A stretch of 49,384 nucleotides of DNA from Thermoanaerobaculia bacterium (GTDB lineage: Bacteria; Acidobacteriota; Thermoanaerobaculia; Multivoradales; Multivoraceae): the NCBI GenBank assembly GCA_022824725.1, contig JAJDZH010000082.1, positions 1 to 49,384 of the forward strand, read 5' to 3'. Each line of letters opens with the position of its first letter. The stretch's first letter is position 1. Below the pieces are notes generated by a model that worked only from the letters and a program-made list of their open reading frames with translations, was not told where the DNA came from and made no database searches. Below are positions 41,311 through 46,959 of this stretch, piece by piece. The position numbers and the translations under genes are program-made.

Positions 41311-44300
41311 TCATTCCGGGATTGTCCGCACAATGCGCCCGGTGTGGTGGTCCACCACGATGATCGGCGCTCTCGGCGTGTCGTCCCCGTACCGGATCGT
41401 CCCAACGGATTTGGCGGCGTCCTCGGCGGCTATTCCCGGAAGGGTGTACGCCTCCGCCAGACCGACATCGACCGTGTAGCCCAGGTCGGCCAGCGATTGG
41501 ATCGTCACCGCGCTCAGCGGGTCGGCTACACCGATGTTCTGGGTCGGCGTCATGAGTTCGTGGTCGAAGACCAAGTCCCGCCAGTGCGTGTCGGCAGAGC
41601 CGAAACCGAGCTGGGCTTCCACGGGCACCTTCTCTCCCTTGTAAACCGTGCCGCCGACCCGATCGAACGCCGGGACGGCAAGGGGGCCCGCAAAATGGGT
41701 GTCCAGCTGGCGCCCCAATACGAACGCCGTGGGATTGCGGAGCAGACCCGAACGCTCCCAGAGCGTCCCGAAGCCCAGTACGTGCGCAATCTCATGGAGG
41801 ATCACTTCTTCCAGATCACCCCTCGTAATCCACTCAGCGTCGTCCAAGTCCAAGGCCATAGCGCCCACGAAGGGCAAACCGCCCTCACGCCGAATCCCGC
41901 ATACCGCGGCATAGGCGGCCGTTCCGCCAACGCCATCGATGCTCCGGGCGCTCGCCACGATCAGAAGGTCATCCACGCTCTTCTGCCCCGTCCGCGTCGT
42001 GATGCCCAGGCATCCCAGATTCTCGTCGCCGGAAAGCGGCACATCCGCCAGTTCGGTGGCTGCCAGAACCGCCGACCAGTACTCGACCGCCGCGTCAAAG
42101 GCCGCTTGCACAGGCGGGTCGACTTCGTTGACGAGGATGAGCTCGATGTCGAAGAACCCGGGCCCGGCGCCCCTCACTGACACCCGCAGGGAGGACCGCG
42201 CTTCCAGGCCACCCGGATCGGTCGCGGTCACCGTGACCGCCGCCGACCCGAGCGCCACCGGCACAACCTTGACGTTGCTACCGGCCATCTCGACCGAGAC
42301 GATACCTGGTCTGGTTGCAGCCGCCGCGTAGGTCAGACTGTCGCCATCGGGATCCCTGAAGTAGGGCGAAACATCGACCGAGTGGGGGCCACTCCCCACT
42401 CTGAGTCGCAGCAGGGGCAGGGTGCGCTCCGGAACGGGCGCCTGATTCAAAGCGGCGCCGAAGAGAACTAGCGGATCGGCTAATCGAAGTTCGACGCCTT
42501 CCATGAAACGCGAAACCACCGGAGCGGGGCCCACGGCCACCTGCGTGGCGAATCGGTCCCCCGTATCCCCGGTGACGGTGACACTCCGGCTCCTGTCACT
42601 TCCGGCTGCGATCTCGACGGTCGCCGCCGAGACGCTGCCGCCGCTAACGGAAAGAGGAACTCTGATGTTGAACGGCGCACCCTGCTCCAGAGCGAGGGCA
42701 ACTTTGGCTGGGCCGGGCGCCCGGAGATCCGCGCTATCCGTCCGACGCAGCCCAAGCGTGAGCGGAAACGGAGAGCCCGGATTACCTCCGAGTTGCAGCT
42801 CCGACAGGCGCCTCAGGCCTGTGAACACCCCTGGCGGCAACTCGACCAGTTGATTATCGTTCAGGAAAAGCGTCTCAAGCCGCCGCAGGCCCGAGAAGGA
42901 GCGCGAGGAAAGCCCGGTGAGCTCGGCCTCCGCCAGGTCCAGGTACTCCAGCCTCGAAAGCCCCGAAAAGGCCGACGCCTCCAGCGTGCCCAGAGGGTTG
43001 CCATCGAGGGCCAAGGTGTACAGCCTGGACAGCTCCTCAAGGGCGCGGGTGGGCACAGCCGTCAACTGGTTCCACCCCAAGCCCAGAAAGAACAGGTTCG
43101 AAAGGTCAGAGAATACGTTCGACGGTACGTCCGTCAGACGACTGCCGCCAAGGAACAACCAACGGAGACCGGAACGGCCCGCGAAGATCCGGGGCGGGAG
43201 GCGAGTCAACTGGGTGCGCTGAAGGCTCAGCACCTCGAGGGCGGGCAGATCCGCGAACAATCGAGGCGGCAAATCCCTCAGAGGGTTGTTCCCCAGCAGT
43301 AACCAATCGAGGCGAGAAAGGCCCGCGAACAATCGAGGCGGAAGACCGGTCAACTGGTTTCCTTCGAGATTCAGTAGATCGACCTCCGGGACATCCGAGA
43401 ACACCGTCTCCGGCAGGCTCGAAAGGCGGTTGCCGGAGAGGTCCAGGTTCGTCCGGATGTCAAGGTCCCGGAAGATCCCCGCGGGCAGGGACGTCAGTTC
43501 ATTGTCTGCGAGAATGAGCTCGTAGACCTTCGTCAATCCAGCGAACACGTTCGGCGGCAGTTCCGTCAACCCGATTCCCCAAAGCCACAGAACGCGCAGG
43601 CCCGAGAGGCCCCCGAAGTCGCCCTCCTGCAGGGTCGTGACGGTGCCCGCTCCCCCGACTGTGCGGAGACCATGAAACGCCCGCGACAATCCGGCTAGCT
43701 CTCCGTCCCCAACGCACGTCAGCCGGCGGCCCGGCTCCGACTCGTCGGACATCGAACTGGTCACGGCGCATTCGCGGGTCCATGCGCGGGCCACGAGGTC
43801 CGGGGACCATCGAGTAGAGCGCTCGTTCCAACGTGTCGAGGCGGACCCGCGCCCATCGAACTGCAATGCCCTCACGTGGGCCAGATCGTTCGCGTCTACC
43901 GCGGCGCAATCGGCTGCGCCGACTTCGGCAACGATGCCGTCCCGGATCATCGGCGTGCGGTCGCAGACGCCTTCCTCGACGTGCACCGCGACCGCGTACG
44001 GATAGCCGCGGACGTAGCCTGTGTCCTCCCCGGGTGGGTCCAATGCGACAATCAGCACCTCGCGCCACGATTCGAGTTCGTCGTCGTCGACGATCGGGAT
44101 CTCGATGTCGCCGCTGGTCTCACCCGCCGCGATCGAGACCGAGCCCCCGGAGAAGTGGCCATGATCCGATGTGCCAGCGTCGGCGGTCGACGGGTCGGCG
44201 TCGACGCCGAGGCTGTAGGTGAAGCTGACCGCGGACGCCGCCGGTTCGCTCAAAGTGAGTCGGAGCAACGCCGTGCCTCCTTCCGGTGTGGCTACGGAGT

Positions 44301-46959: not shown

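What the first reader, a model, noticed from the sequence alone, without database searches (positions are those of the whole stretch)
41311..46959. Giant secreted mosaic protein joining two different LRR solenoids, Ig-like/Calx-beta/cadherin-like modules and a leishmanolysin-type protease
Seen in sequence: one uninterrupted 1,882-codon minus-strand ORF. It has a GTG start with AGGAGG 6 nt upstream, then an Arg-rich N-region and the hydrophobic stretch FPLVALVAVL (a signal peptide). From N- to C-terminus the modules are: (a) two copies of an unassigned 4-Cys domain (aa ~67-187 and 209-329); (b) two Big_2-like Ig domains (aa ~336-508, e.g. VSWWSDNRAVATVDAAGLVTAAGIGTTTV); (c) a cap AVLVAFYEAAGGSGW...WYGV followed by 8 plant-type LRRs (LxGxIPxxLGxLxxLxxLxLSxN); (d) a ~105-aa post-LRR domain; (e) a Calx-beta-like module (GSVSIAAGETSGDIEIPIVDDDELE); (f) a Cys-flanked cap followed by 12 typical LRRs (LxxLPxxxFxxL...); (g) a second copy of the post-LRR domain; (h) a cadherin-like module (FRDPDGDSLTY...VTVTATDPGG); (i) a zinc protease domain with HEIAHVLGF. 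Established knowledge: every module is an extracellular binding or protease fold, and LRR and peptidase M8 are best known from eukaryotes. Inference: this is a surface or secreted, ligand-targeted protease or adhesin-protease, possibly a eukaryote-like effector acting on a host, prey or matrix. I do not recognise this combined architecture as a described family.
Basis: partly seen in the sequence, partly recalled or inferred. Interest (0 to 1): 0.8.

Follow-up and report, generated by a model that had tools for sequence, protein, structure and literature searches.

The report
Secreted LRR-targeted leishmanolysin-like protease
This is a real 1,882-residue exported bacterial protein that joins two leucine-rich-repeat binding solenoids and several Ig-like spacers to an intact leishmanolysin-type zinc protease. 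It belongs to an unstudied family shared by several bacterial phyla, many of them named from marine sponges, so it is a new variant of a familiar kind and not a one-off.

Summary
Pfam supports LRR_8 (E 1e-88), two Big_2 domains and Peptidase_M8. The HExxHxxG motif, the third His 63 residues later and the Met-turn 11 residues after that are invariant in 16 orthologs. The "cadherin-like" module is a Big_9 Ig domain. Calx-beta is supported only at family level. The post-LRR module is an Ig-like beta-sandwich that caps each solenoid.

The architecture is not unique. The cassette cap-LRR-Ig-Big_9-M8 occurs as a single ORF in MAGs of Gemmatimonadota, Latescibacterota, Rhodothermales and Acidobacteriota, where it is usually a lipoprotein. 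The window comes from a relative of Candidatus Multivorans (Acidobacteriota). That lineage has no lipobox and instead carries a tandem pair of the "4-Cys" domain.

The 4-Cys domain is widespread (about 7,800 sequence clusters). It has no Pfam, NCBIfam or PDB relative, yet it gives a confident all-beta model.

The gene is also an intragenic mosaic. Its flanks are 96-98% identical to the nearest genome, but codons 561-1796 are only about 68% identical.

Best reading: a cell-envelope-exported zinc endopeptidase guided to its protein target by the LRRs. The target is unknown. No one has characterised any member of this family.

The parts
46966..46971 (-). Shine-Dalgarno AGGAGG, 6 nt upstream of the GTG start (46959-46957)
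   Evidence: Read directly from the sequence.
46786..46959 (-). N-terminal export signal, aa 1-58. It has a 35-aa Arg-rich n-region, the h-region WALAMFPLVALVAVL (aa 36-50) and the c-region QSGRPASG. There is no lipobox Cys.
   Evidence: This is the only strongly hydrophobic stretch in the protein. The h-region is conserved in the orthologs, whose n-regions are shorter. Cleavage is not predicted because no SignalP was available.
46390..46761 (-). N4C domain, copy 1 (aa 67-190): an uncurated all-beta domain with 4 Cys.
   Evidence: 77% identical to copy 2. No Pfam, NCBIfam or PDB sequence hit. 7,774 representative clusters carry the domain.
45964..46335 (-). N4C domain, copy 2 (aa 209-332).
   Evidence: The AF2 model has pLDDT 94.9 and pTM 0.89 and is all-beta. 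Foldseek finds no PDB or BFVD neighbour; best E is 0.15 and TM is at most 0.33. It is the most conserved module among the orthologs, at about 0.90 mean identity.
45424..45954 (-). Two Big_2 bacterial Ig-like domains (aa 336-418 and 419-512).
   Evidence: Pfam Big_2, E 8e-22, two stretches. The two copies are 39% identical.
45181..45423 (-). N-cap of the first solenoid (aa 513-593; AVLVAFYEAAGGSGW...WYGV). It has no Cys and no Pfam hit.
   Evidence: Conserved in the orthologs and in more than 100 Big_2-LRR paralogs, detected with an HMM built here. No Pfam hit.
44644..45180 (-). LRR array 1 (aa 594-772): 7 full and 1 partial unit of 23-24 residues, plant-specific type LxxLxLSxNxLxGxIPxxLGxL.
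   Evidence: Register listed. Pfam LRR_8, LRR_4 and LRR_1 hit. It contains a 72-nt tandem repeat at 44961-45215 (3.5 copies, 81% matches). The number of units differs among orthologs.
44326..44643 (-). Post-LRR Ig-like beta-sandwich, copy a (aa 773-878), fused directly to the last LRR.
   Evidence: 43% identical to copy b. Its fold is inferred from the model of copy b.
43966..44325 (-). Calx-beta-like module (aa 879-998) with the acidic DDDELE motif.
   Evidence: Alone it reaches E 0.012. 18 of 22 homologous modules hit PF03160 (best 1.4e-8), and the family profile hits NCX1 CBD12 at 6.5e-7.
43609..43965 (-). Cys-containing N-cap of the second solenoid (aa 999-1117; EEGVCDRTP..., Cys 999, 1018, 1064, 1082).
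   Evidence: All four Cys are invariant in 16 orthologs. No Pfam hit. It is the most variable module, with mean identity 0.60.
42772..43608 (-). LRR array 2 (aa 1118-1396): 11 full and 1 partial unit of 24 residues, typical type LxxLxLxxNxLxxLPxxxFxxL.
   Evidence: Register listed. Pfam LRR_8 reports 12 stretches overall.
42451..42771 (-). Post-LRR Ig-like beta-sandwich, copy b (aa 1397-1503).
   Evidence: The AF2 model of aa 1296-1505 has pLDDT 92 and pTM 0.86, with about 9 strands after the LRRs. The best PDB matches that span both parts are LRR-Ig ectodomains: NGL-1, SALM2, TrkA, LINGO-1 and InlB (E 8e-6 to 5e-4).
42169..42450 (-). Big_9 bacterial Ig domain (aa 1504-1597; FRDPDGDSLTY...VTVTATDPGG).
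   Evidence: Pfam Big_9, E 2e-5, 25.8 bits against a cut-off of 23.6. He_PIG, PKD and Cadherin_4 are weaker.
41314..42168 (-). Compact leishmanolysin-type (M8) zinc metalloprotease domain (aa 1598-1882), which ends at the stop codon 41311-41313. Key residues: HEIAH at 41782-41796, third ligand H1792 at 41584-41586, Met-turn M1803 at 41551-41553, Cys pair 1650/1687.
   Evidence: Pfam Peptidase_M8, E 1e-10, 41 bits against a cut-off of 21, covering profile positions 164-334 of 529. 1LML matches at E 2.7e-7 with all catalytic residues aligned. H1722, E1723, H1726, G1729, H1792 and M1803 are invariant.
41572..45279 (-). Divergent internal segment (codons 561-1796, from LRR1 to the M8 core) relative to the nearest genome. 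It is probably a recombinational replacement.
   Evidence: DNA identity is 0.58-0.88 here, against 0.88-1.00 on the 5' side and 0.99 in codons 1797-1836. dS is 0.43-0.84 here against 0.02-0.23 in the N part. In this segment only, the window sequence is the outlier among 12 orthologs.

Best explanation
The gene encodes a zinc endopeptidase that is exported across the cytoplasmic membrane and aimed at a protein target by leucine-rich repeats.

**Shown**
- The N-terminus has an Arg-rich region followed by the protein's only strongly hydrophobic stretch, as a Sec-type signal peptide would. No signal-peptide predictor was run.
- After the signal come two copies of an uncurated all-beta 4-Cys domain (N4C) and two Big_2 Ig domains.
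- Next is a plant-type LRR solenoid capped by an Ig-like sandwich, then a Calx-beta-like module.
- Next is a second, 'typical' LRR solenoid with a Cys-containing N-cap and the same Ig-like C-cap, then a Big_9 Ig domain.
- The C-terminus is a compact leishmanolysin-type (MEROPS M8) catalytic domain with every catalytic residue intact.

**Inferred**
- The two LRR concave faces select one or two protein ligands.
- The Ig-like and Calx-beta modules act as rigid, possibly Ca2+-stiffened spacers.
- The C-terminal protease then cleaves the captured ligand or a neighbouring protein.

**Family context**
- The protein belongs to an uncharacterised family spread over several phyla. The core of that family is cap-LRR-Ig-Big_9-M8.
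- In Gemmatimonadota and Rhodothermales the relatives carry a lipoprotein signal.
- In this Acidobacteriota lineage (relatives of Candidatus Multivorans) the lipobox is absent and the N4C pair occupies the position next to the signal. The N4C pair may therefore serve as the cell-surface or matrix attachment module; this is a hypothesis.

**Target**
The target is unknown. Many relatives are MAGs named after marine sponges, and the LRR-to-protease segment shows allelic replacement. Both point towards a variable external partner, such as host or neighbour surface or matrix proteins.
For: **The ORF is real and conserved**
- 15 colinear orthologs at 51-76% identity.
- synteny on a 4.5-Mb contig of the nearest genome, titled 'chromosome: 1'.

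**Export**
- A single N-terminal hydrophobic segment.
- Seven conserved Cys pairs' worth of cysteines, all confined to the N4C, cap2 and M8 modules.
- Classical lipoboxes (…AACGD…) in most Gemmatimonadota and Rhodothermales relatives.

**LRRs**
- LRR_8 at E 9.8e-89; 8 and 12 regular 24-residue units.
- The post-LRR module is a beta-sandwich. The AF2 model has pLDDT 92, and Foldseek matches LRR-Ig ectodomains and InlB.

**Protease**
- Pfam M8 is above its cut-off.
- 1LML alignment: HEIAHVLGF pairs with HEMAHALGF, GSADTHW with GSAGSHI, and HELMTP with DELMAP.
- The Gly-to-His spacing is 63 residues and the His-to-Met spacing is 11.
- The catalytic residues are invariant in 16 orthologs.
- dN/dS for the M8 domain is 0.40, which indicates purifying selection.
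- 163 of 191 related M8 domains keep the full motif.

**Family distribution and architecture**
-.
- A parallel Big_2-LRR family with a C-terminal M66-like zincin shows that fusing an LRR to a metalloprotease is a recurrent design.

**Variable binding part**
- Cap2 and the LRRs are the least conserved modules.
- LRR units have been duplicated recently.
- The gene is an internal mosaic.
Against: - No activity, localisation or ligand has been tested.
- No SignalP or LipoP prediction was available, so cleavage cannot be told apart from an uncleaved signal anchor.
- Acidobacteriota have two membranes, and no outer-membrane translocation route is evident near the gene. The neighbours are housekeeping and metabolic genes. 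The protein could therefore remain periplasmic.
- The M8 match covers only profile positions 164-334 of 529, and no structure of this domain was modelled.
- The origin of the window is unknown. The sponge association rests on MAG names of relatives and on my own knowledge of those names.
- The anchor role proposed for N4C is purely positional inference.
Confidence: 0.75

Rival explanations
1. It is a general nutrient-scavenging exoprotease. The enzyme digests environmental proteins for amino-acid uptake. The LRR and Ig modules only hold it on particles or on the cell surface and do not select a specific host protein.
For: The gene sits among catabolic and housekeeping genes: acyl-CoA dehydrogenase, AMP-ligase, hydantoinase, esterase and amidohydrolase. 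Short Big_9/Big_2+M8 proteases of 330-500 aa, with no LRR, are abundant in the same phyla. That fits a general secreted-protease toolkit.
Against: Two long LRR solenoids of different types, kept intact in all orthologs and always placed directly upstream of Ig-Big_9-M8 in four phyla, are a costly addition for non-specific tethering. The LRRs and their cap are the fastest-evolving parts, and they have been exchanged as a block together with the catalytic core. That pattern is typical of partner-specific recognition.
Confidence: 0.3
2. It is a non-catalytic adhesin. The M8 domain is a degenerate relic, and the protein acts only as a multivalent surface adhesin.
For: Most of its length consists of binding or spacer folds. 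Two relatives (L012, L022) carry HQIGH in place of HExxH. Catalytically dead versions therefore do exist in this family.
Against: In the window protein and all 15 orthologs, the HExxHxxG motif, the third His and the Met-turn are invariant. The M8 domain is under purifying selection, with dN/dS 0.40. 163 of 191 related domains keep the full motif.
Confidence: 0.05
3. It is an injected LRR effector in the manner of XopL, XopAC or IpaH. The protein is delivered into a eukaryotic cell, where the LRR targets a cytosolic host protein for the enzymatic domain.
For: The best NCBIfam hits are type III LRR effectors XopAC, XopAE and XopL. The general layout, an LRR followed by a C-terminal enzyme, is the same.
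Against: Those hits fall far below their cut-offs (142 against 450, 115 against 600 and 90 against 500 bits) and cover only the LRRs. The protein has a Sec-type N-terminus, its relatives have lipoboxes, and it contains disulfide-type Cys pairs plus Big_2, Big_9 and Calx-beta extracellular folds. No secretion-system genes lie within 10 kb on either side. At 1,882 aa it is very large for an injected effector.
Confidence: 0.03
4. It is an assembly or gene-calling artefact. The giant ORF is a chimera produced by misassembly across repeats.
For: The gene contains internal repeats: an N4C pair at 77% identity, a 72-nt LRR tandem repeat and two post-LRR copies. Its central part is unusually divergent from the nearest genome.
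Against: The reading frame is open for 5,649 nt in a genome of 69% G+C. Fifteen orthologs are colinear from end to end. One has exactly the same length and the same flanking genes on a 4.5-Mb contig titled 'chromosome: 1'. The DNA repeats are only about 81% identical. The same double-LRR architecture is found in a Longimicrobiales chromosome (L004).
Confidence: 0.02

Closest known systems
Leishmanolysin / GP63 (MEROPS M8, Pfam PF01457, PDB 1LML)
   Same: It has the HExxHxxGF zinc motif. A long insertion places the third His 63 residues after the Gly, and the Met-turn lies 11 residues further on. The sequence-level match has E 2.7e-7, and the Pfam score is above the cut-off.
   Different: Only about 286 aa match, covering profile positions 164-334 of 529. 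There is no counterpart of the Cys-rich C-terminal domain, no GPI signal and no recognisable pro-peptide. The domain is bacterial and sits at the C-terminal end of a 1,600-residue binding scaffold.
Short bacterial 'leishmanolysin-related zinc metalloendopeptidase' proteins of Gemmatimonadota / Candidatus Palauibacter (name given by NCBI; uncharacterised)
   Same: The catalytic domain is the same, at 40-62% identity over 97-100% of the domain. It is usually preceded by Big_9 or Big_2 and always ends at the C-terminus.
   Different: Those proteins are 330-500 aa long and have no LRR. The window protein adds two LRR solenoids, Ig-like caps, a Calx-beta-like module and an N4C pair upstream.
Listeria internalins (LRR + Ig-like inter-repeat domain) and animal LRR-Ig adhesion receptors (NGL, SALM, LINGO-1, Trk)
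   Same: An LRR solenoid is capped directly by an Ig-like beta-sandwich. These are the best PDB matches to the modelled LRR/post-LRR unit.
   Different: The matches are only topological: TMq is 0.35-0.46 and the rmsd is high when both parts are aligned. There is no Pfam LRR_adjacent hit. None of those proteins carries a protease.
LRR-enzyme effectors (IpaH/SspH NEL ligases, XopL)
   Same: The logic is the same: an N-terminal LRR recognises the substrate and is fused to a C-terminal catalytic domain. This comparison rests on established knowledge. The NCBIfam hits to Xop families come from the LRR only.
   Different: Those effectors are injected into the cytosol and are ubiquitin ligases. This protein carries a Sec-type N-terminus, contains extracellular folds and ends in a zincin protease.
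Big_2-LRR-(M66/StcE-like) giant proteins of Gemmatimonadota (uncharacterised paralogous family)
   Same: The N-terminal half of the window protein (Big_2 x2, the Cys-free cap and the plant-type LRRs) is 41-53% identical to these proteins. They too end in a zincin motif region.
   Different: Their catalytic region matches Peptidase_M66, not M8. They lack the post-LRR Ig cap, the Calx-beta-like module, cap2 and Big_9.
Eukaryote-like repeat proteins (ELPs/ELRs) of sponge symbionts
   Same: LRR proteins are enriched in sponge-associated MAGs, notably Latescibacterota and Acidobacteriota, with evidence of lateral transfer between taxa (PMC8163846; PMC11706023). Many relatives of this protein come from MAGs named after sponges.
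   Different: Published ELP surveys count repeat domains. I found no description of an LRR-M8 fusion. The source of the window itself is unknown.

Membership tests
Peptidase family M8 (leishmanolysin; Pfam PF01457) | Profile HMM score above the curated gathering threshold | tested here: met
   36.3 bits for the whole protein and 41.2 bits for the domain alone, against a cut-off of 21.
Peptidase family M8 (leishmanolysin; Pfam PF01457) | HExxHxxG zinc-binding/catalytic motif | tested here: met
   HEIAHVLGF at aa 1722-1730. H, E, H and G are invariant in 16 orthologs and aligned to HEMAHALGF of 1LML.
Peptidase family M8 (leishmanolysin; Pfam PF01457) | Third His ligand separated from the motif by a long (~60-residue) insertion, followed by a Met-turn | tested here: met
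   G1729 to H1792 is 63 residues, and H1792 to M1803 is 11. Both are aligned to the corresponding His and Met of 1LML and are invariant. Spacing is 61-65 in 139 of 163 related domains.
Peptidase family M8 (leishmanolysin; Pfam PF01457) | Full three-domain leishmanolysin body including the Cys-rich C-terminal domain | tested here: not met
   Only profile positions 164-334 of 529 and 1LML chain residues 105-277 of 478 are matched. The domain is 286 aa long and ends at the stop codon.
Peptidase family M8 (leishmanolysin; Pfam PF01457) | Zinc-dependent endopeptidase activity | not testable with these tools
   This needs the recombinant protein.
Leucine-rich repeat proteins (Pfam LRR_8/LRR_4/LRR_1) | Tandem 20-29-residue units with LxxLxLxxN and a significant HMM score | tested here: met
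   LRR_8 at E 9.8e-89 with 12 stretches. There are 8 and 12 units of 23-24 residues in register. The AF2 model of the last four units has pLDDT above 90.
Big_2 bacterial Ig-like domain (PF02368) | HMM above cut-off | tested here: met
   77.4 bits against a cut-off of 22.8, two stretches.
Calx-beta domain (PF03160) | HMM above cut-off | tested here: inconclusive
   The window module alone scores 16.1 bits against a cut-off of 27 (E 0.012), although it spans profile positions 6-100 of 119. 18 of 22 homologous modules match at E ≤ 0.01 (best 1.4e-8), and the family profile hits NCX1 CBD12 at 6.5e-7.
Cadherin / bacterial cadherin-like (PF00028, PF17803) | HMM above cut-off | tested here: not met
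   Cadherin_4 scores 14 bits against a cut-off of 25.1 (E 0.073), and PF00028 gives no hit. The module is better described as Big_9, at 25.8 bits against a cut-off of 23.6.
Internalin-type LRR + Ig-like inter-repeat unit | LRR solenoid capped by a fused Ig-like sandwich with internalin-like sequence (Pfam LRR_adjacent) or close structural superposition | tested here: inconclusive
   The model shows an LRR followed by a beta-sandwich. InlB and animal LRR-Ig proteins are among the best Foldseek hits, but TMq is at most 0.46 and rmsd exceeds 11 Å when both parts are aligned. There is no LRR_adjacent Pfam hit.
Type III LRR effectors XopAC / XopAE / XopL (NCBIfam) | Score above the curated family cut-off | tested here: not met
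   141.7 against 450, 114.9 against 600 and 90.3 against 500 bits. The matches cover only the LRR regions.
Bacterial lipoproteins | Lipobox [LVI][ASTVI][GAS]C at the end of the signal peptide | tested here: not met
   There is no Cys before aa 75 in the window protein. In contrast, most Gemmatimonadota and Rhodothermales relatives, and ortholog P0016, have ...AACGD/VVSCGD.
Sponge-symbiont eukaryote-like repeat proteins | Encoded by a sponge-associated symbiont genome | not testable with these tools
   The origin of the window is not given. The nearest genomes are Candidatus Multivorans MAGs (Acidobacteriota). The sponge origin of many relatives is inferred from MAG names (RHO, COS, SB06xx, Ca. 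Palauibacter rhopaloidicola / irciniicola) and from PMC8163846.

The most novel reading that the evidence does not exclude
The cap-LRR-Ig-Big_9-M8 proteins may be a previously unrecognised class of symbiont surface proteases that is shared between phyla.

- They would recognise and cleave specific host (sponge) surface, matrix or immune-receptor proteins.
- Block exchange of the LRR-plus-catalytic segment between strains would record an ongoing recognition arms race.
- In Acidobacteriota the lipid anchor would have been replaced by a tandem N4C module.
- N4C would itself be a new fold that attaches proteins to the cell surface or to the matrix.
Probability: 0.2. Interest if true: 0.75.

Novelty: new variant of a known kind. 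Interest (0 to 1): 0.5.

Why it matters
- **Symbiont function.** Surveys of sponge and other host-associated microbiomes count LRR 'eukaryote-like' proteins, but they rarely assign an effector activity to them. Here the LRR is fused to an intact protease, in a family found across at least four phyla. That gives a concrete, testable idea of what some of these LRR proteins do: deliver a zinc protease to a chosen protein.
- **Missing proteases.** The largest sponge-MAG survey found no collagenases (PMC8163846). This family offers candidate matrix- or surface-directed proteases in the same lineages.
- **Bacterial M8.** The family provides a compact bacterial version of the leishmanolysin fold for structural and mechanistic comparison.
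- **Uncurated domains.** The work exposes two widespread domains without curated models: N4C and the post-LRR Ig cap. N4C has thousands of relatives and no solved structural neighbour.

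Tried and rejected
- **Self-BLAST of the whole protein** returned only the identity hit. Segment-against-segment BLAST was used instead.
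- **First HMM for N4C** was contaminated by ortholog P0016, whose Big_2 domains align in those columns. This produced 118 false 'N4C' hits. The HMM was rebuilt without P0016, and N4C is then confined to the Multivorans-type orthologs among the fetched loci.
- **Tat export** was considered because of WRRGFAR upstream of the h-region. It was rejected because the twin-Arg is absent from the other orthologs, and a 1,882-aa protein with many disulfide-type Cys pairs is an unlikely Tat substrate.
- **Alternative start codons:** the only in-frame ATG (codon 41) would remove the charged n-region. The GTG with AGGAGG upstream was kept.
- **C-terminal sorting domains** (T9SS CTD, PEP-CTERM): nothing follows the M8 domain, whose conserved tail ends the protein in nearly all relatives.
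- **Foldseek of N4C** against the PDB and against viral models gave nothing below E 0.15.
- **Literature searches** for Candidatus Multivorans, LRR plus leishmanolysin in sponges or bacteria, and Peptidase_M8 in bacteria found no description of this architecture.
- **Look-up of the window protein by exact sequence** found no contig on record.

Full report
**1. Observation**

The window has 66-72% G+C. It contains one uninterrupted minus-strand ORF, 41311-46959, of 1,882 codons. The start is GTG, with AGGAGG six nucleotides upstream. The N-terminus has an Arg-rich 35-residue region followed by the only strongly hydrophobic stretch in the protein (aa 36-50).

- The two '4-Cys' domains are 77% identical over 141 aa.
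- The two post-LRR domains are 43% identical (E 2e-24).
- The two Big_2 domains are 39% identical.

The LRR registers are exactly as described:
- Array 1 has 7 full and 1 partial plant-type units (LxxLxLSxNxLxGxIPxxLGxL), aa 594-772.
- Array 2 has 11 full and 1 partial typical units (LxxLxLxxNxLxxLPxxxFxxL), aa 1118-1396.

**2. Domain assignments**

Pfam on the whole protein gives LRR_8 (E 9.8e-89), Big_2 x2 (8e-22) and Peptidase_M8 (above its cut-off). Scans of isolated segments refine the rest:
- The 'cadherin-like' module is Big_9, which passes its cut-off. Cadherin_4 reaches only E 0.073.
- Calx-beta is sub-threshold (E 0.012).
- The 4-Cys domain, both caps and the post-LRR domain have no Pfam match.

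Calx-beta becomes credible through its relatives. Of 22 homologous modules from related loci, 18 hit PF03160 (best 1.4e-8). Their profile finds the Ca2+-binding domains of NCX1 at 6.5e-7.

The M8 call is strong at motif level. The domain aligns to leishmanolysin 1LML (E 2.7e-7) with these pairings:
- HEIAHVLGF pairs with HEMAHALGF.
- GSADTHW pairs with GSAGSHI.
- HELMTP pairs with DELMAP.

The third His lies 63 residues after the motif Gly, and the Met lies 11 residues after that His. This is the long-insertion arrangement that sets M8 apart from other metzincins (established knowledge). All of these residues are invariant in 16 orthologs. The domain is compact, however. It matches profile positions 164-334 of 529 and has no equivalent of the leishmanolysin C-terminal domain.

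**3. Structures**

An AF2 model of the last four LRRs plus post-LRR copy b is confident (pLDDT 92, pTM 0.86). It shows an all-beta sandwich fused directly to the solenoid. The best PDB matches that span both parts are LRR-Ig ectodomains (NGL-1, SALM2, TrkA, LINGO-1) and InlB. TM-scores are modest, so I treat this as a topological analogy and not as family membership.

The 4-Cys domain (N4C) also models very confidently as an all-beta domain (pLDDT 94.9, pTM 0.89). It has no Foldseek neighbour in the PDB or in BFVD; the best E is 0.15.

**4. Relatives and organism**

Fifteen full-length colinear orthologs exist, at 51-76% identity. The nearest is in Candidatus Multivorans sp. OZ244786.1, on a 4.5-Mb contig whose record name ends in '_c' and whose GenBank title reads 'chromosome: 1'. 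It lies in the same gene neighbourhood: BD-FAE esterase upstream and AMP-ligase downstream. Candidatus Multivorans belongs to Acidobacteriota, class Thermoanaerobaculia. The surrounding genes are housekeeping or catabolic. They include SecA, IMPDH, RibF, a MiaB-like enzyme, an acyl-CoA dehydrogenase and hydantoinase B. No secretion system or mobile element is nearby.

**5. The architecture is a family, not a one-off**

I built HMMs from each module and scanned all ORFs of 76 related loci. The cassette cap2-LRR-postLRR-Big_9-M8 appears as a single ORF in these groups:
- Longimicrobiales and other Gemmatimonadota (L004-L014, L016, L017, L022, L023).
- Rhodothermales (L015).
- Latescibacterota (L018, L020, L021, L025, L027, L072, L074).
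- One bin labelled Gammaproteobacteria (L030).

The cassette is often preceded by Big_9-Calx. One Rhopaloeides-named MAG has three copies in tandem (L006). L004 (Longimicrobiales) has the whole double-LRR arrangement of the window protein except for N4C.

The M8 domain on its own is common in short Big_9/Big_2+M8 proteins, which NCBI names 'leishmanolysin-related zinc metalloendopeptidase'. The N-terminal half of the window protein (Big_2, the Cys-free cap and the plant-type LRRs) belongs to a second, very large Gemmatimonadota family. Members of that family end in a Peptidase_M66-like zincin region. Fusing an LRR to a metalloprotease is therefore a recurrent design in these phyla, and the window protein combines both lineages of modules.

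No Pfam or NCBIfam model covers the full architecture. The source databases call these proteins 'Ig-like domain-containing' or 'hypothetical'. My literature searches found no description of them.

**6. Export and anchoring**

Most Gemmatimonadota and Rhodothermales members have a textbook lipobox (…LLAWAAACGD…). So does the distant ortholog P0016 (VVSCGD). The window protein and its close orthologs have a signal-like N-terminus with no lipobox Cys. In its place, directly after the signal, they carry the N4C pair.

N4C is far from private to this protein. A phmmer search against 1.84 billion representative proteins finds 7,774 clusters at E ≤ 1e-3, of which 3,901 are at E ≤ 1e-10. Its features are:
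- It usually occurs as a tandem pair at an extreme terminus. Of the 143 best-scoring proteins, 79 have it within 5 aa of the C-terminus and 44 within the first 80 aa.
- Its partner domains are cadherin, fn3, PKD and CARDB.
- Named carriers are Acidobacteriota, and none has a Pfam annotation on the domain.
- None of 35 diverse members hits Pfam, NCBIfam or PDB meaningfully.
- It is the most conserved module among the orthologs, at about 0.90 mean identity.

From its terminal position, and because it stands where relatives have a lipid anchor, I infer that N4C is an attachment module. This has not been shown.

**7. Evolution within the gene**

Against the nearest genome, the three genes immediately flanking the target are 96-98% identical at protein level, while the target is only 76% identical.

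Sliding DNA identity along the gene:

| Codons | DNA identity |
|---|---|
| 1-560 | 0.88-1.00 |
| 561-1796 (LRR1 to the M8 core) | 0.58-0.88 |
| 1797-1836 | 0.99 |

Synonymous divergence rises in parallel, from 0.02-0.23 in the N part to 0.43-0.84 in the central segment. dN/dS stays below 1 in every domain. In the N part the window protein groups with P0002 and P0003 at 91-93%. In the central segment it is the outlier, at 58-68% to all eleven orthologs, while P0002 and P0003 share 86%.

The simplest reading is that recombination replaced about 3.7 kb of the gene with an allele from an unsampled relative. A 72-nt tandem repeat (3.5 copies, 81% matches) marks recent duplication of LRR units. The caps and LRRs are the least conserved modules.

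**8. Mechanism**

The following are shown:
- The reading frame is intact.
- The N-terminus looks like an export signal, although no signal-peptide predictor was run.
- The modules are extracellular-type folds.
- There are two regular LRR solenoids with Ig-like caps.
- The M8 active site is intact and under purifying selection.

The following are inferred:
- The LRRs capture a protein ligand.
- The Ig-like and Calx-beta modules space and stiffen the scaffold.
- The C-terminal protease cleaves the ligand or a neighbouring protein.

The target is unknown. Many relatives are MAGs whose names point to sponges (RHO, COS, SB06xx bins; Ca. Palauibacter rhopaloidicola, ramosifaciens, irciniicola). The literature reports that LRR proteins are enriched in sponge-associated Latescibacterota and Acidobacteriota and are transferred laterally, and that no collagenases were found (PMC8163846; PMC11706023). 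This makes host or neighbour surface or matrix proteins plausible targets, but the source of the window is not known.

Rival readings are weighed in the rivals section: a general nutrient protease, an inactive adhesin, an injected effector and an assembly artefact.

**9. Verdict**

- The architecture is common in public MAGs.
- One module is renamed, from cadherin-like to Big_9.
- The lineage-specific part is the N4C pair, which replaces a lipid anchor.
- The gene is an allelic mosaic.

It is a new variant of a known kind, a modular exported bacterial protease or adhesin, inside an uncharacterised family. Interest is moderate.

Noticed in passing
window 45964-46761 (aa 67-332 of the ORF): The '4-Cys' N4C domain is a very common uncurated domain. 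It is found in 7,774 representative clusters, usually as a tandem pair at a protein terminus, next to cadherin, fn3, PKD or CARDB domains. No Pfam, NCBIfam or PDB relative exists. The AF2 model is confident (pLDDT 94.9), and Foldseek finds no neighbour in the PDB or BFVD.
   Followed up: yes
window 41572-45279 (codons 561-1796): The gene is an intragenic mosaic. This segment is about 68% identical in protein and 0.58-0.88 in DNA to the nearest genome. The 5' third, the last ~85 codons and the three immediately flanking genes are 88-100% identical. dS is raised as well, so recombination with a divergent allele is more likely than selection alone.
   Followed up: yes
window 44961-45215: A 72-nt tandem repeat (3.5 copies, 81% matches) encodes near-identical LRR units (LTSLNLSxNxLxGxIPxxLGRLAG). 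The number of LRR units differs among orthologs.
   Followed up: partly
window 41311-46959 versus its neighbours: GC3 of the target is 0.79, and as low as 0.69 in post-LRR copy b. The neighbouring genes have GC3 of 0.83-0.93.
   Followed up: partly
L004-L011, L013-L017, L023, L025, L028 (N-termini of the LRR-M8 ORFs): Most Gemmatimonadota and Rhodothermales relatives carry a classical lipoprotein lipobox (…AACGD…). The Acidobacteriota orthologs do not.
   Followed up: partly
L006: 2-3616, 3628-8511, 8448-13898: Three LRR-Ig-Big_9-M8 paralogs lie head to tail in one Gemmatimonadota MAG (RHO3_bin_73).
   Followed up: no
L012 5881-8523 and L022 5875-8520: Two family members have HQIGH in place of HExxH, so the catalytic Glu is replaced by Gln. 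They keep the His ligands, the third His and the Met. They may be natural pseudo-proteases or substrate traps.
   Followed up: partly
L026 5818-12219 and L031 5650-12195 (Ca. Palauibacter rhopaloidicola): Two proteins of about 2,150 aa consist of 19 consecutive Big_9 domains followed by the same M8 domain. In them the spacing between the third His and the Met is altered.
   Followed up: no
P0017, P0022, P0031 (Gemmatimonadota Big_2-LRR giants): The large Big_2 x10-14 plus plant-type-LRR family, which shares the N-terminal half of the window protein, ends in a Peptidase_M66 (StcE-like) motif region. The scores are E about 1e-6, above the cut-off.
   Followed up: partly
window 46870-46900 (aa ~22-30): WRRGFAR upstream of the h-region resembles a twin-arginine motif. 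It is present only in the window and its nearest ortholog, so it is probably not functional.
   Followed up: partly
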